A DNA stretch of 64,000 bases, from positions 2,558-66,557 of IMG/VR virus record IMGVR_UViG_3300009504_000946, one strand, 5' to 3'. The notes beneath the pieces were generated by a model. That model saw only the letters and a list, made by a program, of their open reading frames with translations. It was not told where the DNA came from and made no database searches. The stretch is from a virus. Shown piece after piece: positions 33,046 through 44,959 of this stretch (positions are counted from its first letter, which is position 1; each line of letters opens with the position of its first letter). The translations under genes were made by a program, and so were the position numbers.

Positions 33046-33054
33046 AAACTCTTA

Positions 33055-33080
33055 TACGACAAAAATTAAAAAATGTTTCT
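33055..33080 (-). promoter_or_regulatory. ECF-sigma-type promoter
   Basis: AGAAAC-N16-CGTATAA. Confidence 0.7.
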
Positions 33081-33081
33081 T

Positions 33082-33396
33082 TTATTTGGCAATTTCTCTA
33101 ATAAACACTTTATTTATTTTTGAAGGTATGTTTGAGAATTCTGAAGGAATTCTGAAGTGATGATTTCTTATGAAGTAATTTTCGCCATAAGAATATGTAT
33201 CAACAACACCTATATAATATCCAAGTCCATCATAGAATGTATTTTTTTCATATACACCTTCTGGTTCAATAATATTTACAACCTTTCTTTGAATGATGTT
33301 CTCAATTTCTTCAATAGTAAACTTATCATCTTTTCCACAATCTAAATTATGTTGTACTTGCAACATAATCAATCGGCTAACTTCCTTTAAGTCCAT
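33082..33396 (-). CDS. Hypothetical protein
   Basis: ORF. Confidence 0.55.
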   Translation of the reverse strand: MDLKEVSRLIMLQVQHNLDCGKDDKFTIEEIENIIQRKVVNIIEPEGVYEKNTFYDGLGYYIGVVDTYSYGENYFIRNHHFRIPSEFSNIPSKINKVFIREIAK

Positions 33397-33435
33397 TTCT
33401 TCTCTCTTTATTTTGTTCTTATAATTATTCTGCTG

Positions 33436-33738
33436 TCATTTTTTAAAAGCTCTATGAATTGATTCCAGGTTCTCAACCTTTGCCCACCCAAGAGCTCTAA
33501 ATGAACCTTTAGCTCTTGGGTCAAGAAATAATCTTGCCCAAGTATAGTCAACATCTGTCTTGCAATCCTTGAAACTATATGTCCTATTATTTGAATTAAG
33601 ATGTAGAAGCTCTCCGTCTGATATTCTCTCAATCGTGAATGGAACGTATCCAATATTAAACTCAACTACATCATCTGTCTCCCCATCCTTACAATCGTAA
33701 AGGAATTTGTCAAAAAATTCTTTATTTCTCTGTATCAT
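33436..33738 (-). CDS. Hypothetical protein
   Basis: ORF with ATG start. Confidence 0.55.
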   Translation of the reverse strand: MIQRNKEFFDKFLYDCKDGETDDVVEFNIGYVPFTIERISDGELLHLNSNNRTYSFKDCKTDVDYTWARLFLDPRAKGSFRALGWAKVENLESIHRAFKK

Positions 33739-33750
33739 AAAACATATATT

Positions 33751-34314
33751 TTACCCAAAAGTTTGAATCTTAGCATCCACTTCTTTTAGTTCGCCCCATG
33801 TACCGAGATATGTCACAGCTCGAACTTTTCTATTGTCAATCCAAACATATTCTTGTCCTTCTTTAATTCTTGGCTTATTCATAACCAGACCGTGGTATTG
33901 GAAACCATTTTCATGAAGCCACTTTTCGGTGACATATCTATCTTTTTCTTCTCTGGCAGTAAAAAAAGTAATTACATTTCCTTCATAATACCACTTGTTC
34001 AGCATCTCCTTTGCTCCAGGCAAAGCTTTTGCTTTAGCATAAAGATGGCTGTCCTCATTCTTGATGTCATCACAAACAGTTCCATCAATGTCAATCAAAA
34101 ACACTTTGTTGCCAGCTCTTTTCGGATTGTGATGAGAAATTCTTTCTGCCAAATCCTTTATATTCCATTTAATCCTTAATATTTCAGGGCTTAACTCAAT
34201 AAAGTCAGAGTCCTTTAGTCTCTCTCTTTCATCAACCAATCTTTTTTTCCAATATTCAATTGCCTCTTTTAGGCCTTTTAAATCCTTTGGCATTTCATCA
34301 TCATCAATCATCAT
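33751..34314 (-). CDS. HAD-superfamily phosphatase
   Basis: LIDIDGTVC, FFTAR, NKPR, WIDN. Confidence 0.8.
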   Translation of the reverse strand: MMIDDDEMPKDLKGLKEAIEYWKKRLVDERERLKDSDFIELSPEILRIKWNIKDLAERISHHNPKRAGNKVFLIDIDGTVCDDIKNEDSHLYAKAKALPGAKEMLNKWYYEGNVITFFTAREEKDRYVTEKWLHENGFQYHGLVMNKPRIKEGQEYVWIDNRKVRAVTYLGTWGELKEVDAKIQTFG

Positions 34315-34730
34315 AACTCTCTTTTATCAATTTCATGTTTAATCCTACTTGCCTCCTCATAATCCTCTATTTCAATCGCCTCATCGAGCTTTGAAACCAG
34401 CGAAGTGTCAGACATGCTCTCATATTTACTTTTTCTCTTAGCATTAACAAGTGTAGTTGGGTCTATATAATGTGCCCAACCTTCTTCAAATTTATGAATT
34501 GGCAAGTCAATCAACCTACCCTTCTGAAGTATATATGTAAATGAATCCGTAGCTTCAAAGTAGGCGCACCCATTTGCTATTCCTATGAATATAAGCTTTT
34601 CTCCAATATAACTTGAATCATAACTCATTCCACCCATAAACATACTTTGACTTATAATAACAGACGGTTCAATTCTTGTAACTATATCTCCTGGACTAAA
34701 TTCGTATATAGATTTTGGTTCTTGTTTCAT
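34311..34730 (-). CDS. Hypothetical protein with C-terminal UVR motif
   Basis: LDEAIEIEDYEEASRIK. Confidence 0.6.
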   Translation of the reverse strand: MKQEPKSIYEFSPGDIVTRIEPSVIISQSMFMGGMSYDSSYIGEKLIFIGIANGCAYFEATDSFTYILQKGRLIDLPIHKFEEGWAHYIDPTTLVNAKRKSKYESMSDTSLVSKLDEAIEIEDYEEASRIKHEIDKREL

Positions 34731-35194
34731 CCTCGATAATTTATATTAAAAAATAAACAATTTTCCCTTGGAACTCTATACATCTGGTCTTTCCCATTTC
34801 TATCGTGAGTATCTATTGTCAAATCTTCAATATAATCATCCAAAAATATTTGTTCGGAATCACAACAGACTGCCCACTCAGTTTCGACACATATTATTAT
34901 GTAATAAAATCCTTGCTTGATGTGAAGTCTTTTTTTCCTACCCAAAAAGCTAACAGTATTAAACTTATAGGTATTTTTATGTGTAAATGGATAATTTATT
35001 TTAACTTCTAATTCAAAGTAATATGTAACCCCGTCTTTTTCAGTTATTATGTCATGCTCATAATTTTCATGAGAACTCAAAACTTTATGACCCCTACTAA
35101 CGATAAAATCTATAAACTTTTGTTTAGCATAACCATCATTGTTGTCATAAGAATTTTGATTAAACTCTCTTGCTTCATATTTAAACTCCGACAT
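34727..35194 (-). CDS. Putative PD-(D/E)xK nuclease-fold protein
   Basis: HDIITEKDGVTYYFELEVK. Confidence 0.55.
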   Translation of the reverse strand: MSEFKYEAREFNQNSYDNNDGYAKQKFIDFIVSRGHKVLSSHENYEHDIITEKDGVTYYFELEVKINYPFTHKNTYKFNTVSFLGRKKRLHIKQGFYYIIICVETEWAVCCDSEQIFLDDYIEDLTIDTHDRNGKDQMYRVPRENCLFFNINYRG

Positions 35195-35340
35195 TATTTG
35201 GCAATGTAAGTTATTTTTACATATTTCTCTTTATTAATTGAGAAAATTCTATTCACTATCATTAATTCTAAGTTTAGAACAAAGATATAAATTTAAAAGC
35301 AAGTAACCAAGTAATAGAATTAAATATTTCAAAGTACATA

Positions 35341-35368
35341 AAAAAAGTACCCTACTTTAGAGGATACA
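35341..35368 (-). terminator. Probable terminator closing the tRNA-Gln array
   Basis: Imperfect hairpin GTATCCT..AGGGTAC followed by T6. Confidence 0.45.
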
Positions 35369-35373
35369 TTTTG

Positions 35374-35446
35374 TTGCCCACCCAGGGCTCGAACCTGGAC
35401 TCTTCTGTGTCAAAAACAGACGTGTTGCCAATTACACCAGCGGGCA
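35374..35446 (-). tRNA. tRNA-Gln(TTG)
   Basis: Cloverleaf; anticodon arm TCTGT-TTTTGAC-ACAGA; U1-A72; no encoded CCA. Confidence 0.92.
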
Positions 35447-35453
35447 ATATTTG

Positions 35454-35537
35454 TTGTGCAGGTAGGATTCGAACCTACAAAGGATTTCTCCATACTTGAT
35501 TCAAAGTCAAGACGCTTGCCAGTTTGCATACTGCACA
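35454..35537 (-). tRNA. Atypical tRNA-Gln(TTG) with long variable arm
   Basis: CTTGA-CTTTGAA-TCAAG; V arm TATGGAGAAATCCTTT; T arm GTAGG-TTCGAAT-CCTAC. Confidence 0.8.
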
Positions 35538-35590
35538 ATATTTGTTTCCCATATCTATTGCTTTACCTCACTTATGGGGAGTGAATTTTG

Positions 35591-35663
35591 TTGCCCACCC
35601 AGGGCTCGAACCTGGACTCTTCTGTGTCAAAAACAGACGTGTTGCCAATTACACCAGCGGACA
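35591..35663 (-). tRNA. tRNA-Gln(TTG)
   Basis: Cloverleaf; near-identical to 35374-35446. Confidence 0.92.
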
Positions 35664-35716
35664 ATATTTATTTCCCATATCTATTGCTTTACTTCACTTA
35701 TGGGGAGTGAATTTTG

Positions 35717-35789
35717 TTGCCCACCCAGGGCTCGAACCTGGACTCTTCTGTGTCAAAAACAGACGTGTTGCCAATTACACCAGCGGACA
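35717..35789 (-). tRNA. tRNA-Gln(TTG)
   Basis: Identical to 35591-35663. Confidence 0.92.
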
Positions 35790-35796
35790 ATATATC

Positions 35797-36051
35797 TTAA
35801 TTCATTTTTTCTTTCCAAACTTCTTTTATCTCCTCATCTGAAACTCCAACCTCAGACATTCTACTATGCATCATCATTAATTCAACACATAGACAAACAT
35901 CGAGTCCCAACTCAAACCTCTCCACGGCTTTGTCAAAATATTTATCAAATATTATGGGACCACCCCTTTCTAAAAGAGTTAGTGTATATCCCTCTTCACA
36001 TTCTGAACAAAGTACTTTTTTACCTTTTATTATTATTTCTTTAATTTCCAT
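35797..36051 (-). CDS. Hypothetical protein between the attenuator and the tRNA-Gln array
   Basis: 84-aa ATG ORF with CSEC motif. Confidence 0.55.
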   Translation of the reverse strand: MEIKEIIIKGKKVLCSECEEGYTLTLLERGGPIIFDKYFDKAVERFELGLDVCLCVELMMMHSRMSEVGVSDEEIKEVWKEKMN

Positions 36052-36069
36052 TTTCTAAATTTTTGACAT

Positions 36070-36099
36070 AAAAAAAGCCTGAACTAATCAGTCCAGGCT
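36070..36099 (-). terminator. Attenuator terminator (Gln leader)
   Basis: AGCCTGGACT-GATT-AGTTCAGGCT followed by T run. Confidence 0.85.
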
Positions 36100-36128
36100 C
36101 TCAAATATTTTGTTTTTTAACAAATAGT

Positions 36129-36206
36129 TCAGGCAACACCAGGACCGTCCTCTCTCGAAGATTGCTGCTGTTGTTGCTGAGCTGATATGTTAATTACGTT
36201 TTTCAT
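36129..36206 (-). CDS. Poly-Gln attenuator leader peptide, 25 aa
   Basis: MKNVINISAQQQQQQSSREDGPGVA*; contains antiterminator GTCCTGGT complementary to the terminator 5' arm. Confidence 0.8.
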   Translation of the reverse strand: MKNVINISAQQQQQQSSREDGPGVA

Positions 36207-36291
36207 TTCTCTAATAAATAGTTTTATTTTTAATAAACTTGTTTTTGCAACAATAAACCTTGTTAGTTTATTGTGTACTTTTTACTTGTTG

Positions 36292-36373
36292 TGACCGAAG
36301 CGAGACTCGAACTCGCACGCCCTGCGGCAACGGCTTCTTAGACCGCCTTGGCTACCAATTACAACACTCGGCC
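36292..36373 (-). tRNA. tRNA-Leu(AAG)
   Basis: GCGGT-CTAAGAA-GCCGT; long V arm; A73. Confidence 0.85.
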
Positions 36374-36385
36374 ATTTTTATCTTA

Positions 36386-36421
36386 TACGCAAATTTAGTT
36401 CTTTTGTTTCAAATAATCAAA
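36386..36421 (-). promoter_or_regulatory. Overlapping ECF-type and Bacteroidota housekeeping promoters
   Basis: TGAAAC-N16-CGTA (36386-36411) and TTTG-N20-TAAATTTG (36390-36421). Confidence 0.7.
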
Positions 36422-36656
36422 CTTTTTTTGCAAAAACTTTCTTTATTTTTTCTGATATTAATTCAATAGGGTTTATCTTAAGCAATACAAAAGAAAGTAA
36501 AAAGAATAGGGATGCCAATACATAAAATATATATGTTGTAATCCAATAGTCCCCTGACAATTTCATCACGAGAGCAAATAGTTCTGCATACCCGAATGGG
36601 TTCAGAAATGTTGCTATCATTAAGCAAAGAATCCCTATGTTCTTTCTGTTTCTCAT
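36417..36656 (-). CDS. Small membrane protein
   Basis: Two hydrophobic helices; start probably MRNRKN. Confidence 0.55.
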   Translation of the reverse strand: MRNRKNIGILCLMIATFLNPFGYAELFALVMKLSGDYWITTYIFYVLASLFFLLSFVLLKINPIELISEKIKKVFAKKV

Positions 36657-36763
36657 AATCCCCTGTACTGTCTGATTCCATTTAATCAATTTTTGTTTAA
36701 CAATAGAATATTGCATATTGCGATATGCAATATTCCTCTTTTTTATAAATAGAAAGATAAACT

Positions 36764-37498
36764 TTATCTTTCAATATTTTTACATAATTCATTCCACCTT
36801 AAAATGGACATCCTCACATAATCTCTCCCATCTAAGCCATAAGTTCCTACGCCATATCCATCATTTACTTCTATGAGCATTGTTTCACATTTGTCTGTAA
36901 CTCCAAAGTCAATTGCATATGCAATCGGCTGTGAAGTATAATTTTTTATCGTGTCATTTATAAAGTTAAAGTCTGGAATTACCTCATGATTCCCGCTATA
37001 CTTTCTACAGTCAATCACTTTTCCTTCTGCAACAAAAACTCTATATTCAGACACAAAATTAACAACAGATGAAGTCATTATATTAAACTCATCTCCTTGC
37101 ACAGTCAAAGTAGATATATAATCCAACTCATCCTTATCTGGAATGACAAGCCCAGTAAACAACTTCAACGTTGTCGGCTTAACAAATAAAGGAAAATTTC
37201 CATTATCCTTAAAGTGTCTTACCGTACCTATTTCTATATCCCTCATTGTATACTTATACAATTCTTTTGGAATGTCAATAGGCTCTGGAACAATTACTCC
37301 AAGACTACTTAATGCATGTCTTATTGGAGTAACTCCTCCGAATACAATTGTATTCTTTGTAATATCTAAGCTGTCAATTTCATCGTAATCAAATTTTTCA
37401 GTCTTTATTCTCAAGTGCTCACAACCCAGAAAAGCTACATAAGTTGCCTCAGTTGCAAATTCACCTTTAAATGTTTGAAGATATGCTTTTTCTATCAT
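36764..37498 (-). CDS. ATP-grasp domain protein (DUF4343/R2K-like)
   Basis: FVKP..KLFTG, SEYRVFV, AIDFG, IEVND. Confidence 0.8.
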   Translation of the reverse strand: MIEKAYLQTFKGEFATEATYVAFLGCEHLRIKTEKFDYDEIDSLDITKNTIVFGGVTPIRHALSSLGVIVPEPIDIPKELYKYTMRDIEIGTVRHFKDNGNFPLFVKPTTLKLFTGLVIPDKDELDYISTLTVQGDEFNIMTSSVVNFVSEYRVFVAEGKVIDCRKYSGNHEVIPDFNFINDTIKNYTSQPIAYAIDFGVTDKCETMLIEVNDGYGVGTYGLDGRDYVRMSILRWNELCKNIER

Positions 37499-37544
37499 GC
37501 TAAATTATAAGCATTTTTTTGCATAAATTCAAACACCTAAAAAA

Positions 37545-38306
37545 TTACATATCTTCGAGTGCCATAATTAACTTTTGCATGTCAGCATCGTAAAATCCAG
37601 CACAAGAAGTGCTTCCACACTCAACTATCTTCCATCCATTATCAGTAAGACAAACATCAATTACAAATGTATCAGCAAGTTGATATATGTCCACCATATC
37701 CTGAGCAAAATCTAAAGCATCTTGGTCAACTATGTTATCATAAACCAAGAAACTACCACGCCTATAAGTACTCTGTGTTACTATTTTTCCTTTTACAACC
37801 CAACATCTAACTTCTTGCGTAATTCTCTTTGGAACCGCTACTTGAATCTTAGAATCAAACCTTAGCGTTGTATCCTCTTGATGTGAAAGCATTCTATCTT
37901 TAAATTTATCCCATTCAGTTTTTTCATATACCTTGCCAGTAAAAGATTTTGAATCAAGGCATGGTCTTATAAAATGCTGGTCGCACTTCCAATCAAAGTC
38001 ATCTCCAAAATCAATAACCCTTGAGTCATAATTTAAAAGATTATCCTTATAATATTTTGAATACACGTTGTAATCGTGATTTTCAGTTATTAATGCACCT
38101 GGAGTCCAAGAATATTTTTTTGACAATCTCGCCAACTTAAGAGAACCAAAAACAAATACATCTTTCCTATCTGTCTTAAATTCGACTTCTTCTACAAAAG
38201 GGAAAACTGTAACCAATTCATGACTTATGTCAAACTTATTAAGACAGTTCATTAACTTAGCATGACCTTCTTCTCTAAATAAATTTTCTTGTACAATATA
38301 ATGCAT
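37545..38306 (-). CDS. ATP-grasp domain protein (DUF4343/R2K-like)
   Basis: FIRP..DSKSFTG, EVRCWVV, VIDVC, KIVE; start MHYIVQ (the track extension overlaps a tRNA). Confidence 0.8.
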   Translation of the reverse strand: MHYIVQENLFREEGHAKLMNCLNKFDISHELVTVFPFVEEVEFKTDRKDVFVFGSLKLARLSKKYSWTPGALITENHDYNVYSKYYKDNLLNYDSRVIDFGDDFDWKCDQHFIRPCLDSKSFTGKVYEKTEWDKFKDRMLSHQEDTTLRFDSKIQVAVPKRITQEVRCWVVKGKIVTQSTYRRGSFLVYDNIVDQDALDFAQDMVDIYQLADTFVIDVCLTDNGWKIVECGSTSCAGFYDADMQKLIMALEDM

Positions 38307-38322
38307 AATCTTTAATTTTTTG

Positions 38323-38405
38323 TAGCCCAGGCGAGAATCGAACTCGCACTCCACAAGGGAACAGAATTTTAAGTCCTGCGTGTCTACCAGTTTCACCACT
38401 GGGCC
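38323..38405 (-). tRNA. tRNA-Leu(TAA), long V arm
   Basis: CAGGA-CTTAAAA-TTCTG. Confidence 0.9.
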
Positions 38406-38479
38406 ATTTTTTAATATGAGTGTTCATTATCCCAATCTATTCACGTAATGTGAACACTCCAAAATAATGAACAATCTTG

Positions 38480-38560
38480 TACCGATGGAGAGAGTCGAAC
38501 TCTCACGCCTTTAGGCACTGGGTTTTGAATCCAGCGTGTCTACCATTCCACCACATCGGC
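38480..38560 (-). tRNA. tRNA-Leu(CAA), long V arm
   Basis: CTGGA-TTCAAAA-CCCAG. Confidence 0.9.
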
Positions 38561-38574
38561 ATATGCTGAGGCTT

Positions 38575-39126
38575 TCACTCAGCTGCTTTATATTTTCTAA
38601 AAGTCAAACTTACTCTCGGACCACAATCTCTATCATGCTTTGGAATCCTGTGTAAGTGTGTGTCTTGGAATCCTGGAGGCATGTAAAACAATGAGCCATT
38701 TTCTAACTTCCTTTTATTCTCATCTGGGACCATACCCTTTTCCCCTTTTTCTTTCCACCATATTTCTCTCTCTGCCCCAAATGACACAACTGCAATTCCA
38801 TCATTGTGGTCAATTGAGTGAGAATCATCAGCGTGCCATCCTAATCCATTTCTTGAGCTAACATACATGTTTAAGAAGCAAATATCCAAGCTTGTTCCTA
38901 ACTTCTCATTCACCTTATCCATTATAGACTTAACTATAGGAATCATTGGAGTTGACTTATAGGTAGGAGCTCCGCTGTGGTCTAAGTAAGAATATTCAAT
39001 GTCAGAGTTTGCCATAAAGCACTCTCTTCTCATCTTTGTCTCATCAACCCAACTTACTTCCTTCACTAATGTGTCAATAAAGTCTTCGTCAATTAACTTG
39101 TCTATGTAAACTAAATTTTTCATCAT
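38575..39126 (-). CDS. AlkB-like 2OG-Fe(II) dioxygenase
   Basis: LNMY, GWHADD, VSFGAER, HRIPK, RVSLTFR. Confidence 0.9.
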   Translation of the reverse strand: MMKNLVYIDKLIDEDFIDTLVKEVSWVDETKMRRECFMANSDIEYSYLDHSGAPTYKSTPMIPIVKSIMDKVNEKLGTSLDICFLNMYVSSRNGLGWHADDSHSIDHNDGIAVVSFGAEREIWWKEKGEKGMVPDENKRKLENGSLFYMPPGFQDTHLHRIPKHDRDCGPRVSLTFRKYKAAE

Positions 39127-39137
39127 TTTTATTTTTG

Positions 39138-39211
39138 TGACCCCTATGGAATTCGAATCCATACTATACGCTGTTTAAGAACGTTGCCTCTGCCTATTGG
39201 GCTAAGGGGCC
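39138..39211 (-). tRNA. tRNA with Leu(TAA) anticodon and short V loop
   Basis: ACGTT-CTTAAAC-AGCGT; 5-nt variable loop ATAGT. Confidence 0.85.
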
Positions 39212-39219
39212 AAATCTTG

Positions 39220-39317
39220 TGTGTTGAGCAGGATTCGAACCTACAATAAGGAGATACTGCGCAATATCTTTATCCTCACGACTAAATCGCATGTCTAACC
39301 TCTTTCATCATCAACAC
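39220..39317 (-). ncRNA. Atypical tRNA-like RNA (Leu-type D loop, shrunken anticodon loop, very long V arm)
   Basis: 7-bp acceptor GTGTTGA/TCAACAC, T arm GTAGG-TTCGAAT-CCTGC, arm GCGA-TTTAG-TCGT. Confidence 0.65.
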
Positions 39318-39318
39318 A

Positions 39319-39395
39319 TGGTACACCTGGAGGGAGTCGAACCCCCAACCTCACGAGTCGTAATCGTGTGCTCTATCCAGTTGAGCTACAGGTGC
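39319..39395 (-). tRNA. tRNA-Arg(ACG), CCA encoded
   Basis: CACGA-TTACGAC-TCGTG. Confidence 0.93.
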
Positions 39396-39405
39396 ATATT
39401 TCCGA

Positions 39406-39729
39406 TTACTCGGAAACTTTTATAAATTCACCAGACTTAATTGCCTTTCCAATCCATCTGTTAAGCTCAGAACCTCTCATCTCCGCTGAGAAAGTTGTTG
39501 TCCCAAGGTCTGCAGACAATGTTGTAACTACATCTGGTTCCTTAACTTCTGCACCAACTTCTAAAGTTGATACATGATGTGTAACTTCAACGTCAATAGT
39601 CGAAATAGGAAATTGATAAACTCCACCTTCCAACTTTACAGTGTAATATAAATTACCACTCACATAGTGACTAAGCTTAGCCATCTCTTTGCTTTTAAAA
39701 AGCTCTTTTTTTACTTCTAACTCGTTCAT
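39406..39729 (-). CDS. Hypothetical protein
   Basis: ORF between tRNAs. Confidence 0.6.
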   Translation of the reverse strand: MNELEVKKELFKSKEMAKLSHYVSGNLYYTVKLEGGVYQFPISTIDVEVTHHVSTLEVGAEVKEPDVVTTLSADLGTTTFSAEMRGSELNRWIGKAIKSGEFIKVSE

Positions 39730-39745
39730 TTCTTATAAAGTTATG

Positions 39746-39818
39746 TAGGACTTACAGGGCTTGAACCTGCGACCTCTTGCATGTCATACAAGCGCTCTAC
39801 CAACTGAGCTAAAGTCCT
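39746..39818 (-). tRNA. tRNA-Val(GAC)
   Basis: CTTGT-ATGACAT-GCAAG; 5' end overlaps the leuS stop. Confidence 0.9.
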
Positions 39819-41098
39819 GTATTAAAATTTGGAGCAAAACACCTTACTATTTCTGTAAGTGCAGCAGCTGTGCTCCCTGTCAACTGCTTATTCTTATTTT
39901 TATTGTAGAATTCCATCAAAGTGCTTATTACCTTATTAAACTTGAAGGATTCTACATATCCATCAATAGTATATTGCAAATCAATTATATCTTTAGCGGT
40001 TACACCCTCACTTACACCCTCACTTACACCCTCAATCCATCTATTCCATTTACCTAAAGCCCTTCTTATTCCACTAATCTTTGAGTCATCCCAATCTCCG
40101 CCTTCGAAGTAGTGTCCAATGAACATCAAGTACATTCTCAACTCATCTGGGTCGTAGTCATCTGGGTTTACAACATTCCCAATTGACTTTGACATCTTGA
40201 CCCCATCTTTGGTAATCATTCCCTGGTGAATCAATTTCTTGAATGGTTCCTCACATGTAACAATTCCTTGGTCATACAAGAACATATTAATAAATCTTGC
40301 ATAAATCAAGTGCATGCATGCATGTTCATTTCCACCAACATACAAGTCCACTTGTTTGTATTCATCCTTAGGCAAAAACTCACTATCACTATCTGTCAAA
40401 TATCTCAAGTAGTAAAATGAGCTATCAACAAATGTATCCAAAGTATCAGTTTCTCCATCTACAGGAATTGGACATCCCCAACTCCTCTGTCTTGATACAC
40501 ACCAATCATTCAAATTCTCAAGCCAGTGTCTCTGTTGCTTCTTTGTCTTCTCTGGGTAGTCAATCCAATCCAAGTTTTTAATCAACCTGTCTTTATAATC
40601 TGTAATTTTAAAGAACCACTGATTCAACTCTCTTACCTCAACTTGCGACTTACATCTATCACACTTCTCCTCTTTTACCTGCTCATTTGCCAATACAGTT
40701 TCACAACTTGGGCAGTAATTTACTGGAGCAACTTTCTTATAAGCCAATCCAGCATCTTTCAACTTCAAGAACAACCACTGTGTCCATTTTTGATAGCTTG
40801 GGTCAGATGTAACCAATTTCTCTTCAAATTGAGTATTCATATTCTGCATCTGCCACCTAAATCTCTCAATGTTCTTATAGGTTATTCTCCTTGGGTCTCC
40901 ACCTTCTTTCTTGGCCTGGTTTTCTGCAGGCAATCCGAATGAGTCATATCCAAAAGGTTGGAACACGCTTATTCCTTTAAAATTTTTCCATCTGCAGTAA
41001 GAATCAATTACCGCATAATTGTAAGCATGTCCAACATGCAAACCATCACCTGAAGGATATGGAAACATTGTCAAGCAGTAAAAATCTTCCTCTTTCAT
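39809..41098 (-). CDS. leuS: Minimal leucyl-tRNA synthetase (no CP1 editing domain, no C-terminal domain), 429 aa
   Basis: MFPYPSGDGLHVGH, DSFGLPAEN, DWCVSRQRSWG, DTLDTFVDSS, GGNEHACMHLIYARF, KMSKSIGN; start MKEEDF. Confidence 0.92.
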   Translation of the reverse strand: MKEEDFYCLTMFPYPSGDGLHVGHAYNYAVIDSYCRWKNFKGISVFQPFGYDSFGLPAENQAKKEGGDPRRITYKNIERFRWQMQNMNTQFEEKLVTSDPSYQKWTQWLFLKLKDAGLAYKKVAPVNYCPSCETVLANEQVKEEKCDRCKSQVEVRELNQWFFKITDYKDRLIKNLDWIDYPEKTKKQQRHWLENLNDWCVSRQRSWGCPIPVDGETDTLDTFVDSSFYYLRYLTDSDSEFLPKDEYKQVDLYVGGNEHACMHLIYARFINMFLYDQGIVTCEEPFKKLIHQGMITKDGVKMSKSIGNVVNPDDYDPDELRMYLMFIGHYFEGGDWDDSKISGIRRALGKWNRWIEGVSEGVSEGVTAKDIIDLQYTIDGYVESFKFNKVISTLMEFYNKNKNKQLTGSTAAALTEIVRCFAPNFNTGL

Positions 41099-41108
41099 AA
41101 TCTTTTTT

Positions 41109-41251
41109 TTGCGCTTGCGCCAGTGAGCAAAGCGAGTTGTAGGACAGGAGGGACTCGAACCCCCGACATCTTGCATGTAAAACAAGCGCTCTACCAGCTG
41201 AGCTACTATCCTATTTTTATGCGCTTGCGCCAGTGAGCGAAGCGAGTTGTA
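41109..41251. repeat. ~32-bp direct repeat forming the 3' trailers of two tRNAs
   Basis: TGCGCTTGCGCCAGTGAGCRAAGCGAGTTGTA at ~41110 and ~41220. Confidence 0.8.
41140..41212 (-). tRNA. tRNA-Val(TAC)
   Basis: CTTGT-TTTACAT-GCAAG. Confidence 0.9.
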
Positions 41252-41323
41252 CCCTCTGTCAGATTCGAACTGACACTGTATGGCTTCTAAGGCCATCGCC
41301 TCTACCAATTGGGCTAAGAGGGC
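41250..41323 (-). tRNA. tRNA with Leu(TAG) anticodon and short V loop
   Basis: ATGGC-CTTAGAA-GCCAT; 5-nt variable loop ACAGT. Confidence 0.85.
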
Positions 41324-41376
41324 ATTTCTATTGTTGGCCAAATGTGGTATTTAACTTCTACATTTGGCCACTTTTG

Positions 41377-41451
41377 TACTCCCTGTTGGACTCGAACCAA
41401 CGACCCTTGCCTTGTAAGGGCAATGCTCTGAACCAACTGAGCTAAGGAAGC
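41377..41451 (-). tRNA. tRNA-Val(TAC)
   Basis: TTGCC-CTTACAA-GGCAA. Confidence 0.93.
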
Positions 41452-41478
41452 ATTCTAAATTTATAATTTCGTCTTCAG

Positions 41479-41564
41479 CTTGCCAAGCAGGACTTGAACC
41501 TGCACGCCCTATTACGGGCAGCCCTTCTTACAGAGCCCATGTCTACCAATTCCATCATTGGCTC
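41479..41564 (-). tRNA. Degenerate Leu-type tRNA (anticodon ambiguous, TAA or AAG)
   Basis: Leu-type D loop and V arm, intact T arm; only 5-bp acceptor; irregular loop TGTAAGAA. Confidence 0.5.
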
Positions 41565-41620
41565 GCCTTAGACCAGAACTTCATAGAGTTTGCAACCTCT
41601 TATTCATTCTGACAATTGTG

Positions 41621-41693
41621 TGGTGATGGAGGGAATTGAACCCCCGACACATGGATTTTCAGTCCATTGCTCTACCAACTGAGCTACATCACC
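41621..41693 (-). tRNA. tRNA-Phe(GAA)
   Basis: ATGGA-CTGAAAA-TCCAT. Confidence 0.93.
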
Positions 41694-41753
41694 ATAAATT
41701 CCGAAAGACTGGTAAGACCTGCAAGCTCGGAAAAACACCTGCAGGTGTCTATG

Positions 41754-41830
41754 TGGTACGGACGAGAGTCGAACTCGTGACCTCTGGGGTTTCAAGCCAG
41801 CGCTCTACCAAAAAACTGAGCTACCATACC
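41754..41830 (-). tRNA. tRNA-Phe(GAA), variant
   Basis: Loop TTGAAAC; C31:C39 mismatch; U-rich expanded D loop. Confidence 0.8.
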
Positions 41831-41832
41831 AT

Positions 41833-41972
41833 AAAATTTAGGGGAAAGTTTGAGAGAGTGTAAACCCCTGAAGGGGCTCGACAGGACTTGAACCTGTAAC
41901 AGTTTGTGTTTAAGACAAATGCGCTACCAATTGCGCAACGAAGTAACTCTTACTCATCACCACCTAAATTTT
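41833..41972 (-). ncRNA. Y-RNA-like RNA carrying a tRNA (TAA anticodon) D/anticodon/T module
   Basis: Outer stem AAATTTAGG/CCTAAATTT, internal loop TGGTGA/AACTTTCC, inner stem, TACTTCG, then tRNA arms with a broken acceptor. Confidence 0.55.
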
Positions 41973-41976
41973 TTTG

Positions 41977-42112
41977 TGGAGGGGGCTGGACTCGAACCAG
42001 CGACACGGTGCTTTCAATGCAAACGAAGTATCTCACATTCTCACCACTAACAAAAGGGAAAACGAAGTAAGGTTTTTTTTCTAACCTGCTCTACCAACTG
42101 AGCTACCCCTCC
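41977..42112 (-). ncRNA. Phe-like tRNA with a ~60-nt Y-RNA-like insertion in the anticodon arm
   Basis: Perfect acceptor GGAGGGG/CCCCTCC, D and T arms; insert carries the TTTTCC, TGGTGA and TACTTCG motifs. Confidence 0.6.
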
Positions 42113-42176
42113 AAAAATTTATTCTTAATATGTCAAATTTTCCTTTCGGAATTCCCTGGACGCTTCCAGTGGAAAC

Positions 42177-42206
42177 AAAAAAAGCCCGAACAGTAGTTCG
42201 GGCTTT
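42177..42206 (-). terminator. Attenuator terminator (Leu/Val/Phe leader)
   Basis: AAAGCCCGAAC-TACT-GTTCGGGCTTT plus T run. Confidence 0.88.
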
Positions 42207-42232
42207 CAAATATCTTTTATATGATTATAACA

Positions 42233-42334
42233 TCAACTTAAAGACATATTACGTCCGAACTCTTGTCTACTAAAGACAAATAGTAATTGCACTTGCAATA
42301 AGAGTTGACGTGATATGTTGTTAATGTTTTTCAT
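42233..42334 (-). CDS. Multi-codon attenuator leader peptide, 33 aa
   Basis: MKNINNISRQLLLQVQLLFVFSRQEFGRNMSLS*; AGTTCGG is complementary to the terminator 5' arm CCGAACT. Confidence 0.8.
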   Translation of the reverse strand: MKNINNISRQLLLQVQLLFVFSRQEFGRNMSLS

Positions 42335-42380
42335 TGTTATCTTTAAATATACAGAAAATTTATTTTTCCATTTTTAATTA

Positions 42381-42415
42381 TACGCAAATTTATAAATTAT
42401 GTTTCAATAATCCAA
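42381..42415 (-). promoter_or_regulatory. Overlapping ECF-type and Bacteroidota housekeeping promoters
   Basis: TGAAAC-N16-CGTA (42381-42406) and TTG-N20-TAAATTTG. Confidence 0.7.
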
Positions 42416-42495
42416 GGCTTTTTTTAATTATTTTTAATAATAATTTTTAAATAACTGATAATCAAATATTTATAATTAAAAATAATTTGAAAAAT

Positions 42496-42526
42496 AAAAA
42501 ACCTGAAGACTTTCTCCAGGTTTTTT
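42496..42526 (-). terminator. Intrinsic terminator
   Basis: AAAAAACCTGGAGA-loop-TCTTCAGGTTTTTT. Confidence 0.7.
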
Positions 42527-42530
42527 ATTT

Positions 42531-43292
42531 TTAGAACCACCACTTTCCATAGTGCTTGTGTCGATATTTGAACTCATGCTGGTCATCGCACCAATCATAA
42601 ATCCAACAACCCCAATCATCAGTAATGTCATCATACTTAGCAAAGGTAGCTCTCATATTTTTGCGAAGCGCATTCTTATTATAAGCTCTATCCCTTCTGT
42701 TTAAGCATTGTCTCCACCACTTTGAAGAACTGTGTCTTTCCCAGTACTTTCCTCTAACATCATAGAAGGTTGTCTCAAGTTGAGCATTAATTTCCGCTTC
42801 TTCTCTCAACAATTCTTCATCAATGACCTTGTAATGAGTCTTGTAGCTCTTTACAATCTTTCTCACAAGAAAGTGAGATGGGATGTTAACGGCATATACT
42901 GTGTATGATGCTCCCCCCCAGCGACTCTGCTTTTGATAAGAATAAAAAAACTTCTGAGCCCACGCACTAAGATTATCATATCGCTTTTGGTCAATTTCTC
43001 TTAGCCCTGGGTTAACATCAACCATTTTTTTACAAGAACGGTCCCATTCTTTGAAATTCTTATCCTTACACCAAACAGTTGTACCAAAGTTATCAAGAAT
43101 TTGCTGAAACTTATCAGCATCTTCTCTCCTTGCCACATCGTCTCTAAGGACCCAGTAGGAATCATACCCATGGTGGATTGGTTTTTCGAGAGGCTTGTAT
43201 CCGAGTTTCCTCTGTGCCTCCCAGTTAGCATCATGCTCTCTCATCTTACTGAGAAATGCCTTGTGCTTTTCTGCTTTCGCATTCCTTTTCAT
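42531..43292 (-). CDS. Basic hypothetical protein
   Basis: 253-aa K/R/W-rich ORF (WVLRDDVAR). Confidence 0.7.
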   Translation of the reverse strand: MKRNAKAEKHKAFLSKMREHDANWEAQRKLGYKPLEKPIHHGYDSYWVLRDDVARREDADKFQQILDNFGTTVWCKDKNFKEWDRSCKKMVDVNPGLREIDQKRYDNLSAWAQKFFYSYQKQSRWGGASYTVYAVNIPSHFLVRKIVKSYKTHYKVIDEELLREEAEINAQLETTFYDVRGKYWERHSSSKWWRQCLNRRDRAYNKNALRKNMRATFAKYDDITDDWGCWIYDWCDDQHEFKYRHKHYGKWWF

Positions 43293-43368
43293 GTTCTGTG
43301 TTTTTCTAAGTTAATACTTAGTACACAGAACCTTTTCTTGGAATTTGATATTTGATTTGATTCGTCAC
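43293..43368 (-). promoter_or_regulatory. uORF (43318-43368) ending inside a hairpin that abuts the downstream ATG
   Basis: GTG-start 16-codon ORF MTNQIKYQIPRKGSVY*; hairpin GTTCTGTGT-A-CTAAGT-ATTA-ACTTAG-AAAA-ACACAGAAC-ATG. Confidence 0.6.
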
Positions 43369-43379
43369 TTAACTATATA

Positions 43380-43405
43380 TACGTAAAAAAACAGAAAATG
43401 TTACT
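43380..43405 (-). promoter_or_regulatory. ECF-sigma-type promoter (variant)
   Basis: AGTAAC-N16-CGTATA. Confidence 0.65.
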
Positions 43406-43597
43406 TTATTCCAGATAAATATTATACTGACTTATCATTTTTTCATTAAGAGAGTATCCTTTCATGAGCCAAAAGTCAAATTCAAATTCTGTCTTAGATT
43501 CCGAAAGTCTAACCACAATTAAGTCCGCATAATACTGAGCCCACTTATGAATTATCATAAGCTTCCAAGCTTTGTATTTATTATAGTAATTTTTCAT
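43406..43597 (-). CDS. Hypothetical protein
   Basis: Packed ORF. Confidence 0.5.
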   Translation of the reverse strand: MKNYYNKYKAWKLMIIHKWAQYYADLIVVRLSESKTEFEFDFWLMKGYSLNEKMISQYNIYLE

Positions 43598-44192
43598 ATT
43601 TTTTTCTTAATTTATTTTCAATTTTTTTTGCTACATATGCACAGAACTCAGCTTGAAGGTCAATTGGAATATAATCTTCATAGTCTTTTTTTAAAAAATA
43701 TCCAAATTTTTTAAAATGACTATTTTTAAGTTCTCTATATGTTTTATGTGGCCTATTCATATGCCACTCATCCCCACTCTCTGGTAAAACAGTATCATAA
43801 AAATATACTATGGCAGACTCTTTTTTTTCTTTGATAGACATCCAAAGAACTGAATTAAATTCTTTTTTAATCATACCAAATATTTCTGGAACATGCTCAT
43901 GAGCATCTTCAAATCCTGAGATTATTCTTCTGATAATTGGAAAAATCACAATACCAAACTCATTGTCTTCATGAGTAATTTCTCCTGTCATTTTATACTG
44001 CATGTCACACATCTTTTCTTCAGACAAAAGGATGAGCGCTGCTATTTCAAAGCCAACAGCAACTTTTACAGCAACACCTGAATCAAGACCCTCAAGAAAC
44101 CCTAAGTTCATGTATCTAATTAAAATATGGTCTAAAGAATTTTTATCTCTATCTGAGATACCAATTAAACCGCTCCTAAAAAGTTCTGACAT
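43581..44192 (-). CDS. Hypothetical protein with T4 gp23-like capsid fragments
   Basis: LGFLEGL, FPIIRRI, IDLQAEFCAY. Confidence 0.55.
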   Translation of the reverse strand: MSELFRSGLIGISDRDKNSLDHILIRYMNLGFLEGLDSGVAVKVAVGFEIAALILLSEEKMCDMQYKMTGEITHEDNEFGIVIFPIIRRIISGFEDAHEHVPEIFGMIKKEFNSVLWMSIKEKKESAIVYFYDTVLPESGDEWHMNRPHKTYRELKNSHFKKFGYFLKKDYEDYIPIDLQAEFCAYVAKKIENKLRKKYEKLL

Positions 44193-44207
44193 GCTATTTA
44201 TTTTAAA

Positions 44208-44846: not shown

Positions 44847-44878
44847 ATTAAAATATACAAAACAAAATTAATAAAATC

Positions 44879-44911: not shown

Positions 44912-44959
44912 CTTTTTAGGGCCGAAGCATCCACCAATTCAAGTCCAAGGACCTGAATA

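What the first reader, a model, noticed from the sequence alone, without database searches (positions are those of the whole stretch)
35341..42415. Codon-matched ribosome-stalling attenuators gate phage backup tRNA arrays (candidate undescribed system)
Seen: two homologous leader ORFs (MKNVINIS.. and MKNINNIS..), each followed by an intrinsic terminator whose 5' arm is complementary to a sequence late in the leader, and each upstream of a tRNA array. The sensor codons match the anticodons downstream: Gln x6 before four tRNA-Gln; CGT/TTA/TTG/GTG/CTA/TTT/GTC before Arg(ACG), Leu(TAA/CAA/TAG), Val(TAC/GAC), Phe(GAA) and LeuRS. Established: this is trp/his/leu-type attenuator geometry, which normally controls amino-acid biosynthesis or synthetase operons, and host anticodon nucleases such as PrrC, RloC, VapC and PARIS AriB deplete specific tRNAs during infection. 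Inference: the phage senses loss of particular charged tRNAs and transcribes variant replacements on demand, as an inducible counter-defence. I know of no description of attenuated phage tRNA arrays, but I cannot search the literature.
Basis: partly seen in the sequence, partly recalled or inferred. Interest (0 to 1): 0.95.

Follow-up and report, generated by a model that had tools for sequence, protein, structure and literature searches.

The report
Leader-peptide attenuators gating phage tRNA arrays
In this giant-phage fragment each block of tRNA genes sits behind a tiny test gene spelled in the codons those tRNAs read and followed by a switchable transcription stop, so the phage probably makes these tRNAs mainly when those codons are being decoded slowly.

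Summary
Two homologous short ORFs lie on the minus strand (42334-42233 and 36206-36129). Each is followed 25-27 nt later by one of the two strongest intrinsic terminators in the region, and each heads a tRNA block. The poly-Gln leader precedes four tRNA-Gln. The Arg/Leu/Val/Phe leader precedes Phe, Val, Leu and Arg tRNAs and a minimal LeuRS.

The decisive evidence is comparative. I examined 22 leader/terminator/tRNA units from the window, three related huge phages (including LR745206.1) and five metagenome contigs. In these, 98% of downstream tRNA isotypes are spelled in their own leader, against 63% after shuffling the pairings. None of 100,000 shuffles reached the observed value.

Leader-associated terminators also carry an upstream complement to their 5' arm (24 units, mean z -2.0). 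65 control terminators from the same loci do not (mean z 0.0; Mann-Whitney p 4e-11). The window's own two antiterminators are individually weak.

Most likely this is trp/ilv-type ribosome-mediated attenuation applied to tRNA genes, and to aaRS genes in a relative, giving feedback control of tRNA supply. The counter-defence purpose is untested, although a Pnkp-Hen1 RNA-repair pair lies in the same window. Ten literature searches found no published account. This scan had already noted the same kind of system on other DNA.

The parts
42379..42406 (-). Promoter-like box of unit A: TGAAAC-N16-CGTATA, containing TAAATTTG at 42392-42385
   Evidence: The motif has 10 copies in the window with up to 1 mismatch, all on the minus strand, against 0.31 expected. 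A 54-nt stretch is 72% identical to the box of unit B (D13). The box is conserved in ortholog L028.
42233..42334 (-). Leader ORF A, 33 codons plus stop: MKNINNISRQLLLQVQLLFVFSRQEFGRNMSLS
   Evidence: The ortholog in L028 keeps the frame across a 6-nt indel, and its core substitutions stay within Leu, Gln and Val.
42272..42310 (-). Regulatory codon stretch of leader A, codons 9-21: CGT CAA CTC TTA TTG CAA GTG CAA TTA CTA TTT GTC TTT
   Evidence: All four downstream isotypes (F, V, L, R) are spelled here (recall 1.0). 13 of 14 matched codons are readable by downstream anticodons.
42301..42311 (-). Region 1 of attenuator A; pairs with region 2 when the leader is not translated
   Evidence: MFE fold of the nascent transcript without a ribosome.
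42250..42263 (-). Region 2 of attenuator A. AGTTCGG at 42261-42255 is complementary to the terminator 5' arm (antiterminator strand).
   Evidence: Duplex energy -8.8 kcal/mol, z -1.2. The pairing forms in constrained folds with the ribosome at codons 10, 12, 14, 17 and 20, and not with the ribosome at codon 23, at the stop codon, or with no ribosome. The sequence is identical in L028.
42173..42207 (-). Intrinsic terminator A: stem 42207-42180 plus T-tract (regions 3 and 4)
   Evidence: The hairpin alone folds at -19.1 kcal/mol. The arms are identical in L028 while the loop differs. An Rfam Leu_leader match here is below threshold.
38322..42112 (-). Gated block A. tRNA-like elements 42112-41754, then Phe(gaa), Val(tac), Leu(tag), Val(tac), LeuRS core 41098-39809, Val(gac), a 107-aa ORF, Arg(acg), Leu(taa), a 2OG-Fe(II) oxygenase 39162-38575, Leu(caa), Leu(taa)
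36417..38309 (-). Two R2K ATP-grasp genes (38309-37545, 37498-36764) and a 99-aa ORF. No strong terminator separates them from block A.
36384..36411 (-). Promoter-like box of unit B: TGAAAC-N16-CGTATA
36291..36373 (-). tRNA-Leu(aag), lying between promoter box B and leader B
36129..36206 (-). Leader ORF B: MKNVINISAQQQQQQSSREDGPGVA. The run of six Gln codons is at 36179-36162.
   Evidence: An analogous Gln-rich leader, MTTTQQIQQQQINQTD, precedes three tRNA-Gln in LR745206.1.
36138..36147 (-). Candidate region 2 of attenuator B: CGGTCCTGGT, pairing with the 5' arm with one mismatch
   Evidence: Duplex energy -11.1 kcal/mol, z -1.35 to -1.5. It forms with the ribosome on the Gln codons. A second upstream partner also pairs in the other states, so the predicted switch is not clean.
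36067..36102 (-). Intrinsic terminator B: stem 36102-36073 plus T-tract
   Evidence: The hairpin folds at -16.3 kcal/mol.
35797..36051 (-). 84-aa ORF of unknown function between terminator B and the Gln array
   Evidence: The only family hit is DUF7630 at 18.0 bits, below its cut-off of 27.
35373..35789 (-). Gated block B: four tRNAs with anticodon TTG. Three are 97-100% identical copies of 74 nt. One is 85 nt with a long variable arm (35537-35453).
   Evidence: (D2).
35347..35367 (-). Terminator-like hairpin closing block B

Best explanation
These are two ribosome-mediated (leader-peptide) transcription attenuators that gate the phage's tRNA genes.

Proposed sequence of events:
1. Transcription starts at a conserved promoter box.
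2. A ribosome translates the short leader while RNA polymerase approaches the terminator.
3. If the ribosome moves quickly to the end of the leader, it covers or unwinds region 2. The terminator hairpin then forms and transcription stops before the tRNA block.
4. If the ribosome lingers on the middle codons, region 2 stays free. It pairs with the terminator's 5' arm and polymerase reads through into the tRNA genes. The middle codons are Gln in leader B and Arg, Leu, Val, Phe and Gln in leader A.

The sensed codons are those read by the tRNAs behind the gate, so the circuit is a negative feedback. Slow decoding gives more of exactly those tRNAs, and in unit A more LeuRS. That speeds decoding, which restores termination. 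Each gate is multivalent: a stall at any cognate codon opens the whole block.

Shown here: the anatomy, the codon/anticodon co-variation, and the terminator-specific antiterminator complementarity.
Inferred: that the leaders are translated, the direction of regulation, and the physiological trigger. Candidate triggers are a mismatch between host tRNA supply and this AT-rich phage's codon use, host shut-off, and tRNA cleavage by defence nucleases.
For: (1) Anatomy in the window. Promoter box, short ATG ORF, a 25-27 nt spacer, a strong terminator, then tRNAs, present twice.

(2) Co-variation in relatives. My pipeline (ARAGORN, terminator scan, short ORF) found the same unit in front of tRNA blocks in LR745206.1 and two IMG/VR huge phages, in one further site found by eye, and in 5 new metagenome contigs. 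Examples:
- MTTNSTHKNFSKSHKWF.. precedes His, Phe, Trp and Lys tRNAs.
- MKTTLSLSLSLSLSLS.. precedes Ser x3 and Leu x4.
- MNISINIREREERE.. precedes Glu x2 and Arg x3.
- MTTMNLNMTMNLTLNVVNITL.. precedes a 19-tRNA block of Asn, Arg, Leu, Val, Ile, Thr and Met.

(3) Permutation of the leader/array pairing over 22 units:
- Recall 0.981, against 0.629 shuffled.
- Precision 0.482, against 0.224 shuffled.
- F1 0.631, against 0.302 shuffled.
- 0 of 100,000 shuffles reach the observed value for any of the three.
Within LR745206.1 alone (7 units), only 1 of 5040 permutations, the true pairing, reaches the observed F1.

(4) Codon level. 259 of 290 matched codons are readable by a downstream anticodon under strict wobble. 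At the 96 informative sites, 65 are readable against 49.7 expected from synonymous usage (P about 5e-4).

(5) Antiterminator. In 24 units the duplex between the terminator 5' arm and the 87 nt upstream has mean z -2.02, and 12 of 24 units fall below -2. For 65 other terminators in the same loci the mean z is +0.03, and 1 of 65 falls below -2. Mann-Whitney p = 4.4e-11. The partner lies in the last codons of the leader or around its stop codon.

(6) Ribosome-mask folding. For leader A, 0 arm bases are paired with no ribosome, 7 with the ribosome at codons 1-17, and mostly 0-1 from codon 18 on (exceptions: 7 and 6 at codons 20-21, 6 at codon 33). 13 of the 18 units lose the pairing once the ribosome passes the matched codons (my reading).

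(7) Ortholog L028 (LeuRS 83% identical). Region 2 and both terminator arms are identical, the loop and spacer differ, the frame is kept across a 6-nt indel, and the core changes stay within L, Q and V.

(8) Orthologous arrays in the two IMG/VR phages keep leader composition but not residue order, for example the F/D/E/A, L/V/C and T/Y/Q/K/P/G leaders.

(9) 22 of 24 leaders have a TAnnTTTG promoter-like motif within 150 nt upstream, against 691 of 4800 random windows.

(10) In LR745206.1 the same units gate aaRS genes. MINNNVNILLLPLT precedes a LeuRS-like gene. MKTMTINNRNRLTDII precedes AsnRS and a weakly ArgRS-like gene.
Against: - No expression, Term-seq or ribosome data exist. No RNA holder of this DNA was listed, so translation of the leaders and regulated readthrough are inferred.
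- The window's own antiterminator pairings are weak when taken alone (z -1.2 and -1.35). Leader B's predicted switch is not clean, because a second upstream segment can pair with the arm in the 'terminate' states.
- Only 44% (leader A) and 25% (leader B) of leader residues match downstream isotypes.
- Leader A has four Gln codons but ARAGORN calls no Gln tRNA in block A. Its AGA codon is not read by Arg(acg).
- 31 of 290 matched codons are unreadable under strict wobble.
- Not all tRNAs in the relatives are gated: 52 of 59, 51 of 62 and 36 of 43. More distant LeuRS-bearing phages (L002, L005, L007-L012) show no units.
- In several units the antiterminator is predicted even without a ribosome, unlike trp 'superattenuation'.
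- The mechanism needs coupled transcription and translation without a Shine-Dalgarno site in a presumed Bacteroidota host. I could not verify that.
- The units are not phylogenetically independent.
Confidence: 0.8

Rival explanations
1. The switch is the same, but its selected purpose is inducible counter-defence. The gates open when host anticodon nucleases or other tRNA-depleting defences cut specific tRNAs, releasing phage replacement tRNAs on demand. This is the first reader's reading, and it overlaps with the best explanation rather than excluding it.
For: The same window encodes a Pnkp (kinase, phosphatase and ligase domains; 18457-21165) and Hen1 (21174-22505) RNA-repair pair, an RNase T-like exonuclease and an AlkB-type oxygenase. 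In Anabaena, a stress-induced tRNA operon is co-induced with rtcB and hen1-pnkP (PMC8421152, passages read). tRNA-cleaving defences such as Septu are in print (PMC13096335; only the start of the abstract seen, in the listing). Other examples I know only from recall.
Against: No nuclease, and no resistance feature of these tRNAs, was tested. The gates cover almost every isotype, not a few known nuclease targets. They also gate aaRS genes in a relative. aaRS induction helps charging and does not help against cleavage. A stall sensor cannot tell cleavage from amino-acid starvation or plain codon-usage mismatch.
Confidence: 0.25
2. The gates sense general translational slowdown or infection stage, for example ribosome shortage or host shut-off, and act as a timer for the tRNA blocks. 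They do not report codon-specific tRNA supply.
For: All leaders share an A-rich N-terminal part (M-K/T/N-T/N-I-N-..). Any slow ribosome would open them. The Anabaena array responds to general translation stress.
Against: A general timer would not need block-specific codon content. Composition tracks the downstream isotypes (0 of 100,000 shuffles), and partly the specific codons.
Confidence: 0.08
3. The short ORFs are chance frames, or small proteins or sRNAs with their own constitutive terminators. In this view the tRNA blocks are transcribed from other promoters.
For: Short ATG frames are common in AT-rich DNA. The third copy of the window's promoter box drives terminator-ended structured RNAs without ORFs. 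A promoter box lies directly before tRNA-Leu(aag).
Against: Chance frames would show neither the codon/isotype co-variation nor the antiterminator complementarity that is absent from the 65 control terminators. Peptide order is not conserved between orthologous leaders while composition is, which argues against a functional peptide.
Confidence: 0.04
4. The leader RNA binds tRNAs directly, like a multi-specifier T-box riboswitch, without translation.
For: Both designs present codon-like triplets matched to particular tRNAs ahead of a terminator/antiterminator switch.
Against: No T-box or other riboswitch family matches at E<=1 in 30-48 kb. The triplets lie in one ATG-to-stop frame that is kept across an in-frame indel in the ortholog. 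Up to seven different isotypes are listed in one leader, with no conserved structured platform.
Confidence: 0.03

Closest known systems
Multivalent leader-peptide attenuators of enterobacterial amino-acid operons (thr: Thr+Ile; ilvGMEDA: Ile/Leu/Val; also trp, his, leu, phe). Named from recall.
   Same: A short translated leader rich in the relevant codons. An intrinsic terminator with a mutually exclusive antiterminator whose upstream strand lies at the end of the leader. One leader lists several amino acids.
   Different: The controlled genes here are tRNAs (plus a LeuRS core, and aaRS genes in a relative), not biosynthetic enzymes. The output therefore feeds straight back on the sensed step. 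The elements are phage-borne, lack a Shine-Dalgarno site, list up to seven isotypes, and are repeated before nearly every tRNA block. There is no sequence membership: Rfam Leu_leader scores 35.5 bits against a threshold of 50.
pheST attenuator with the pheM leader peptide of E. coli, an aaRS operon controlled by leader-peptide attenuation. Named from recall.
   Same: A leader with cognate codons gates an aminoacyl-tRNA synthetase. This matches Leu-leader to LeuRS and Asn/Arg-leader to AsnRS in LR745206.1, and LeuRS inside block A here.
   Different: It is a cellular, single-amino-acid system that does not gate tRNA genes. I checked E. coli K-12 pheV and found no leader ORF or attenuator upstream of that tRNA gene.
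T-box riboswitches of Firmicutes. Named from recall.
   Same: They sense the state of a specific tRNA and switch a terminator/antiterminator ahead of translation-apparatus genes.
   Different: A T-box binds uncharged tRNA directly through one specifier codon and needs no ribosome. No T-box match was found here, and the codons here form a translatable ORF.
Stress-induced long tRNA array (trn operon) of Anabaena sp. PCC 7120. PMC8421152, passages read; PMC10272220, abstract read.
   Same: An extra tRNA set is kept silent and induced when translation is impaired. It is co-regulated with RNA-repair genes (rtcB, hen1-pnkP), and this window also holds Pnkp-Hen1.
   Different: Control there is at the promoter, by the repressor TrcR acting on direct repeats. 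The words 'attenuat' and 'leader' do not occur in PMC8421152. It is cellular, not viral, and is not codon-resolved.
Phage tRNA genes as codon-usage compensation or as countermeasure to tRNA-targeting defence. General literature, recalled. Only the start of the abstract of PMC13096335 was seen, in a search listing.
   Same: Large phages carry tRNA sets that can sustain translation when host tRNAs are unsuitable or destroyed.
   Different: As far as my searches show, those accounts treat tRNA content and not a leader-peptide gate on tRNA transcription. The main text of Al-Shayeb et al. 2020 has no occurrence of 'attenuat', 'leader' or 'terminator'.

Membership tests
Ribosome-mediated (leader-peptide) transcription attenuator | A short ORF with a start codon in the transcribed leader, between the promoter and the controlled genes | tested here: met
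   ORFs at 42334-42233 and 36206-36129. A promoter-like box lies 45-72 nt upstream of ORF A. 22 of 24 units have TAnnTTTG within 150 nt upstream.
Ribosome-mediated (leader-peptide) transcription attenuator | Regulatory codons cognate to what the operon supplies | tested here: met
   Recall 0.981 against 0.629 shuffled, with 0 of 100,000 shuffles reaching it, over 22 units. Both window leaders have recall 1.0. At the codon level, 65 of 96 informative sites are readable against 49.7 expected.
Ribosome-mediated (leader-peptide) transcription attenuator | An intrinsic terminator between the leader ORF and the controlled genes | tested here: met
   12- and 13-bp GC-rich stems with T-tracts, 25 and 27 nt after the stop codons.
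Ribosome-mediated (leader-peptide) transcription attenuator | An antiterminator: an upstream segment that pairs with the terminator 5' arm (tested across the family) | tested here: met
   24 units have mean z -2.02. 65 control terminators have mean z +0.03. Mann-Whitney p = 4.4e-11.
Ribosome-mediated (leader-peptide) transcription attenuator | An antiterminator in the window's own two units, taken alone | tested here: inconclusive
   z -1.24 (AGTTCGG/CCGAACT, -8.8 kcal/mol) and z -1.35 (-11.1 kcal/mol, one mismatch). Region 2 of unit A is identical in ortholog L028, so no compensatory change is available to judge by.
Ribosome-mediated (leader-peptide) transcription attenuator | Ribosome position decides which hairpin forms: a stall on the regulatory codons frees region 2, and a ribosome at the end of the leader blocks it | tested here: inconclusive
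   In silico only, using a footprint I assumed (-15 to +14 nt around the A site). Leader A behaves as expected and leader B does not switch cleanly.
Ribosome-mediated (leader-peptide) transcription attenuator | Readthrough rises in vivo when the cognate charged tRNA is scarce | not testable with these tools
   No RNA holder of this DNA was listed, and the runs laid were contigs of relatives.
Rfam Leu_leader (RF00512) | A covariance-model score at or above the gathering threshold of 50 bits | tested here: not met
   35.5 bits, E 3.8e-4, at 42254-42178, covering mainly the terminator.
T-box riboswitch | A match to the T-box leader model (specifier loop plus T-box sequence) | tested here: not met
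   No T-box hit at E<=1 in 30000-48000 on either strand.
Anabaena-type TrcR-repressed tRNA operon | An RHH repressor and its direct-repeat operator at the array promoter | not tested
   Considered only as a functional analogue.

The most novel reading that the evidence does not exclude
Huge phages of Bacteroidota-like hosts run a modular, codon-resolved sensor network for the translation apparatus. Almost every tRNA block, and some aaRS genes, has its own multivalent leader that measures decoding speed at exactly the codons that block serves. Together with the Pnkp-Hen1 repair pair, this lets the phage detect and replace tRNAs that the host withholds or cuts, acting as an inducible counter-defence and a viral take-over of tRNA homeostasis.
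Probability: 0.3. Interest if true: 0.95.

Novelty: new variant of a known kind. Interest (0 to 1): 0.85.

Why it matters
Leader-peptide attenuation is a textbook mechanism, but it is known for amino-acid biosynthesis and a few synthetase operons. I know of no case where it controls tRNA genes. Here the sensed quantity, decoding speed at given codons, is directly the product of the gated genes, which makes this the shortest feedback loop on tRNA supply that I can think of.

It matters in four ways:
- It shows that giant phages regulate their tRNA sets block by block and do not simply express them constitutively.
- The leader gives a readable 'label' for each array, which helps annotate odd phage tRNAs.
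- It makes the debated role of phage tRNAs (codon-usage compensation or defence evasion) testable with simple reporter fusions.
- It offers compact, programmable codon-specific sensors for synthetic biology.

Tried and rejected
RNA evidence. The look-up of sequencing runs listed no RNA holder, only four small-share (0.05-0.07) wastewater runs from one study. Laid on the stretch, they were contigs ('probably DNA') of relatives and of unrelated tRNAs. They show neither ends nor expression levels. I draw no conclusion from them.

Search for close homologues of the MKN..NIS leader by a degenerate DNA pattern in viral contigs. It gave 2 hits (L025, L026). Both were chance matches with no tRNAs and with stop codons a few codons in.

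More distant LeuRS-bearing phage contigs (L002, L005, L007-L012). No leader/terminator units were seen upstream of their tRNAs or their LeuRS. They were not used in the statistics.

Metagenome loci. 19 of the 80 loci carry tRNAs. The automated rule (a strict terminator no more than 1 kb before a tRNA) fired 8 times in 7 loci. Seven of those hits have a short ORF. Two of the seven duplicate L003 and were dropped. The L045 hit has no ORF. L027, L031 and L040 are cut at or inside the array start.

Rows dropped before counting. L004 and L035 duplicate L003. The units L001+7706 and L015+5376 gate aaRS genes and have no tRNAs before the next unit, so they are not in the permutation tests. They are included in the antiterminator tests.

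Rfam. The Leu_leader match is below threshold and I do not count it as membership.

ARAGORN in intron mode on the odd tRNA-like elements gave implausible 'Ser(tga) with intron' calls. I leave their identity open.

A recollection that E. coli tRNA-Phe genes have a Phe-codon leader. I checked K-12 pheV. The roughly 105-nt upstream region has no such ORF or attenuator, so I dropped the idea. The 1985 paper I had in mind is not held.

No leader units lie upstream of the window's own AsnRS (33045) or MetRS (49292).

Literature. Ten full-text searches found no account of leader-peptide attenuation of tRNA genes, in phages or in cells. The supplementary information of Al-Shayeb et al. 2020, or other unseen texts, could therefore hold such a remark.

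Full report
What is there. The window is most of a 66.5-kb virus contig. All long ORFs and all 14 ARAGORN tRNAs lie on the minus strand. PHROG and Pfam hits mark it as a large phage rich in translation and RNA genes: an endolysin domain, phage-only families, Pnkp, Hen1, AsnRS, MetRS and a LeuRS core. The nearest named records are uncultured huge phages LR745206.1 (634,780 bp) and LR756500-3. Al-Shayeb et al. 2020 state that their largest genomes, 634 kb and above, fall in the 'Mahaphage' clade and are predicted to replicate in Bacteroidetes (PMC7162821, passages read).

Leader A (42334-42233) and leader B (36206-36129) share their first eight codons and a promoter-like box. Each is followed 25-27 nt after its stop codon by one of the two best terminators in 34-44 kb. 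The promoter box is TGAAAC-N16-CGTATA. It has 10 copies in the window, all on the coding strand, against 0.31 expected. The lead for this motif came from another note on this window, and I verified it.

Leader B reads six Gln codons in a row. After the terminator and an 84-aa ORF come four tRNAs with anticodon TTG, then a closing hairpin. Leader A reads R-Q-L-L-L-Q-V-Q-L-L-F-V-F. After its terminator come several aberrant tRNA-like elements, then Phe, Val, Leu, Val, a 429-aa LeuRS core, Val, Arg and three Leu tRNAs. Interspersed are an AlkB-type oxygenase and two R2K ATP-grasp genes. 13 of leader A's 14 matched codons and 6 of leader B's 6 are readable by downstream anticodons.

Is it more than chance? 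In LR745206.1, the stretch homologous to the window holds three such units. MINNNVNILLLPLT precedes a LeuRS-like gene. MKTINVNIAPVNPQPQDQDP.. precedes Pro and Asp tRNAs. MTTTQQIQQQQINQTD precedes three tRNA-Gln.

I then fetched the tRNA regions of that genome and of two IMG/VR huge phages found through the LeuRS. I ran one pipeline over all of them: ARAGORN, a hairpin-plus-T-run scan, and ATG ORFs ending shortly before the hairpin. Nearly every strong terminator that precedes a tRNA block has a short ORF whose middle part spells the isotypes of that block. One more unit was found by eye, where my stem rule failed.

A metagenome scan with the LeuRS added five independent contigs. These include an ortholog of leader A (L028) and striking cases such as (LS)x6 before three Ser and four Leu tRNAs.

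Results over 22 units with tRNAs:
- Mean recall (isotypes of the block present in its leader) is 0.981, against 0.629 after shuffling the pairings.
- Precision is 0.482, against 0.224.
- None of 100,000 shuffles reaches the observed value.
- Inside LR745206.1 alone, only the true pairing among 5040 permutations reaches the observed F1.
- The match extends partly to the codon level. At sites where some synonymous codon would be unreadable, 65 of 96 leader codons are readable by a downstream anticodon, against 49.7 expected (P about 5e-4).

The units are related by descent, so these are not 22 independent events. However, orthologous leaders keep their composition and not their residue order. 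That is what selection on codon content, and not on a peptide, predicts.

Switch anatomy. For each unit I computed the best duplex between the terminator's 5' arm and the 87 nt upstream, and compared it with shuffles. The 24 units have mean z -2.02. The 65 other terminators in the same loci have mean z +0.03 (Mann-Whitney p = 4.4e-11). The upstream partner lies in the last codons of the leader or across its stop codon. A ribosome that finishes the leader would therefore occlude it, and one held on the matched codons would not.

I folded the nascent RNA up to the terminator loop with a footprint masked (my assumption: -15 to +14 nt around the A site). This gives the expected pattern for leader A. 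With no ribosome, region 1 (42311-42301) pairs with region 2 and the arm is free. With a ribosome at codons 1-17, AGTTCGG (42261-42255) pairs with the arm. From codon 18 to the stop codon it mostly does not (0-1 arm bases paired), apart from codons 20, 21 and 33 (7, 6 and 6).

Leader B is less clean. CGGTCCTGGT (36147-36138) pairs with the arm when the ribosome sits on the Gln run, but another upstream segment can pair with the arm in the other states. Taken alone, the window's two antiterminators are within chance (z -1.2 and -1.35). Their credibility comes from the family. For unit A it also comes from L028, where region 2 and both arms are identical while the loop, the spacer and the 5' UTR have changed, and the ORF keeps its frame across a 6-nt indel.

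How it most likely works. It is a trp/ilv-type ribosome-mediated attenuator. Fast translation of the leader gives termination. A stall at any codon served by the block gives antitermination and transcription of the block. Because the output is the tRNAs themselves (plus LeuRS), the loop is a direct negative feedback on decoding speed. In LR745206.1 the same device gates a LeuRS-like gene and an AsnRS plus a weakly ArgRS-like gene behind an N/R leader. This fits control of aminoacyl-tRNA supply in general. Most tRNAs in the fetched loci are gated, but not all: 14 of 14, 52 of 59, 51 of 62 and 36 of 43. Suppressor-like tRNA(cta) and Cys genes have their own promoter-like motif and no leader.

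What triggers it in nature is open. It also gains from the Anabaena precedent, where a silent tRNA array and hen1-pnkP are induced together under translational stress (PMC8421152). There, however, control is by the repressor TrcR (PMC10272220, abstract). Nothing here tests nuclease resistance or induction by cleavage.

Comparison and novelty. The mechanism is that of known leader-peptide attenuators, and the defining sequence features are met. In-vivo regulation is untestable here. It is not a member of Rfam Leu_leader (35.5 bits against 50) or of the T-box family (no hit). New features are the controlled genes (tRNA arrays), the viral setting, the degree of multivalency, and the repetition of the device across a genome. 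Ten full-text searches found no description. The main text of the huge-phage paper does not mention attenuators or leaders. Supplements and most subscription journals were not searchable.

This scan's notebook shows that the same kind of system was already noted and confirmed by other agents on other phage DNA. I treated those notes as leads and ran my own tests. I class the finding as a new variant of a known kind, of high interest. The main weaknesses are the absence of any expression data and the weak stand-alone structure signal of the window's own two units.

Noticed in passing
window 47082-47392 (-): A third copy of the promoter box (TGAAAC-N16-CGTATA with TAGATTTG) drives three tandem units of about 70-90 nt. 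Each unit has an outer GGG/CCC stem, an inner stem of differing sequence, a conserved TCCTTCTAAA loop segment, TACTTTC, and a T-run. They lie upstream of a 702-aa gene (phrog_33734). Two of the three fold with z about -3.8.
   Followed up: partly
window 18457-22505 (-): A Pnkp-Hen1 RNA-repair pair. Pnkp has kinase, metallophosphatase and PNKP-ligase domains. Hen1 has the Hen1 N-terminal domain plus a methyltransferase. A DnaJ gene and an RNase T-like gene lie next to them.
   Followed up: partly
window 39809-41098 (-): The LeuRS is a 429-aa catalytic core, with no Pfam hit to an editing or anticodon-binding domain. Its leuS_bact score is 401.7 bits, below the 548.4 cut-off. The best relatives cover nearly the whole query (residues 1-429, 7-425), so they appear to share this short form.
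   Followed up: partly
window 35453-35537 (-); L001 11101-11182; L028 about 2755-2835: A long-variable-arm (type II-like) tRNA with anticodon TTG sits among ordinary tRNA-Gln genes, and recurs in three phages. Conversely, tRNA-Leu(tag) and one tRNA-Leu(taa) in the window are only 75 nt, with short variable loops.
   Followed up: no
window 41478-42112 (-): The first elements after terminator A are aberrant tRNA-like sequences. One has a 45-nt insert (42112-41977). One lacks an acceptor stem (41941-41878). One is Phe-like with a 9-nt anticodon loop (41830-41754). One is a Leu(aag)-like body with a 2-nt insertion in the anticodon loop (41560-41478). The motif TACTTCGTT recurs three times. All are conserved in L028.
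   Followed up: partly
L001 10504-10577; L003 19917-20002; L024 10678-10763: ARAGORN calls tRNAs with four-base 'anticodons' (gtag, agga, aaaa) in the related huge phages.
   Followed up: no
L020 6805-6880; L023 2336-2484: tRNAs with anticodon CTA, which would read TAG, lie next to Cys tRNAs in two relatives. In L020 a TAnnTTTG motif lies directly upstream of the tRNA(cta), and in L023 one lies just upstream of the block. Neither has a leader gate.
   Followed up: no
L001 7706-7804; L015 5376-5479 and L108 21-1199: In LR745206.1 the same leader/terminator device precedes aaRS genes. A Leu-rich leader precedes a LeuRS-like gene. An Asn/Arg-rich leader precedes AsnRS (414.1 bits, just above the 414 cut-off) and a 392-aa gene with a weak argS match (39 bits).
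   Followed up: partly
window 36764-39162 (-): Two paralogous R2K-clade ATP-grasp genes and a 2OG-Fe(II) oxygenase (2OG-FeII_Oxy_2, AlkB-like) are embedded among the tRNA genes of block A.
   Followed up: no
window 9744-56479 (-): Ten copies of TGAAAC-N16-CGTATA (up to 1 mismatch, 0.31 expected), all on the coding strand. This is a phage promoter class whose sigma factor I did not identify. In the relatives the leaders carry TAnnTTTG instead, or in addition.
   Followed up: partly
window 30857-33045 and 47736-49292 (-): AsnRS (588.6 bits), PPK2 and MetRS genes. None has a leader gate in this window.
   Followed up: partly
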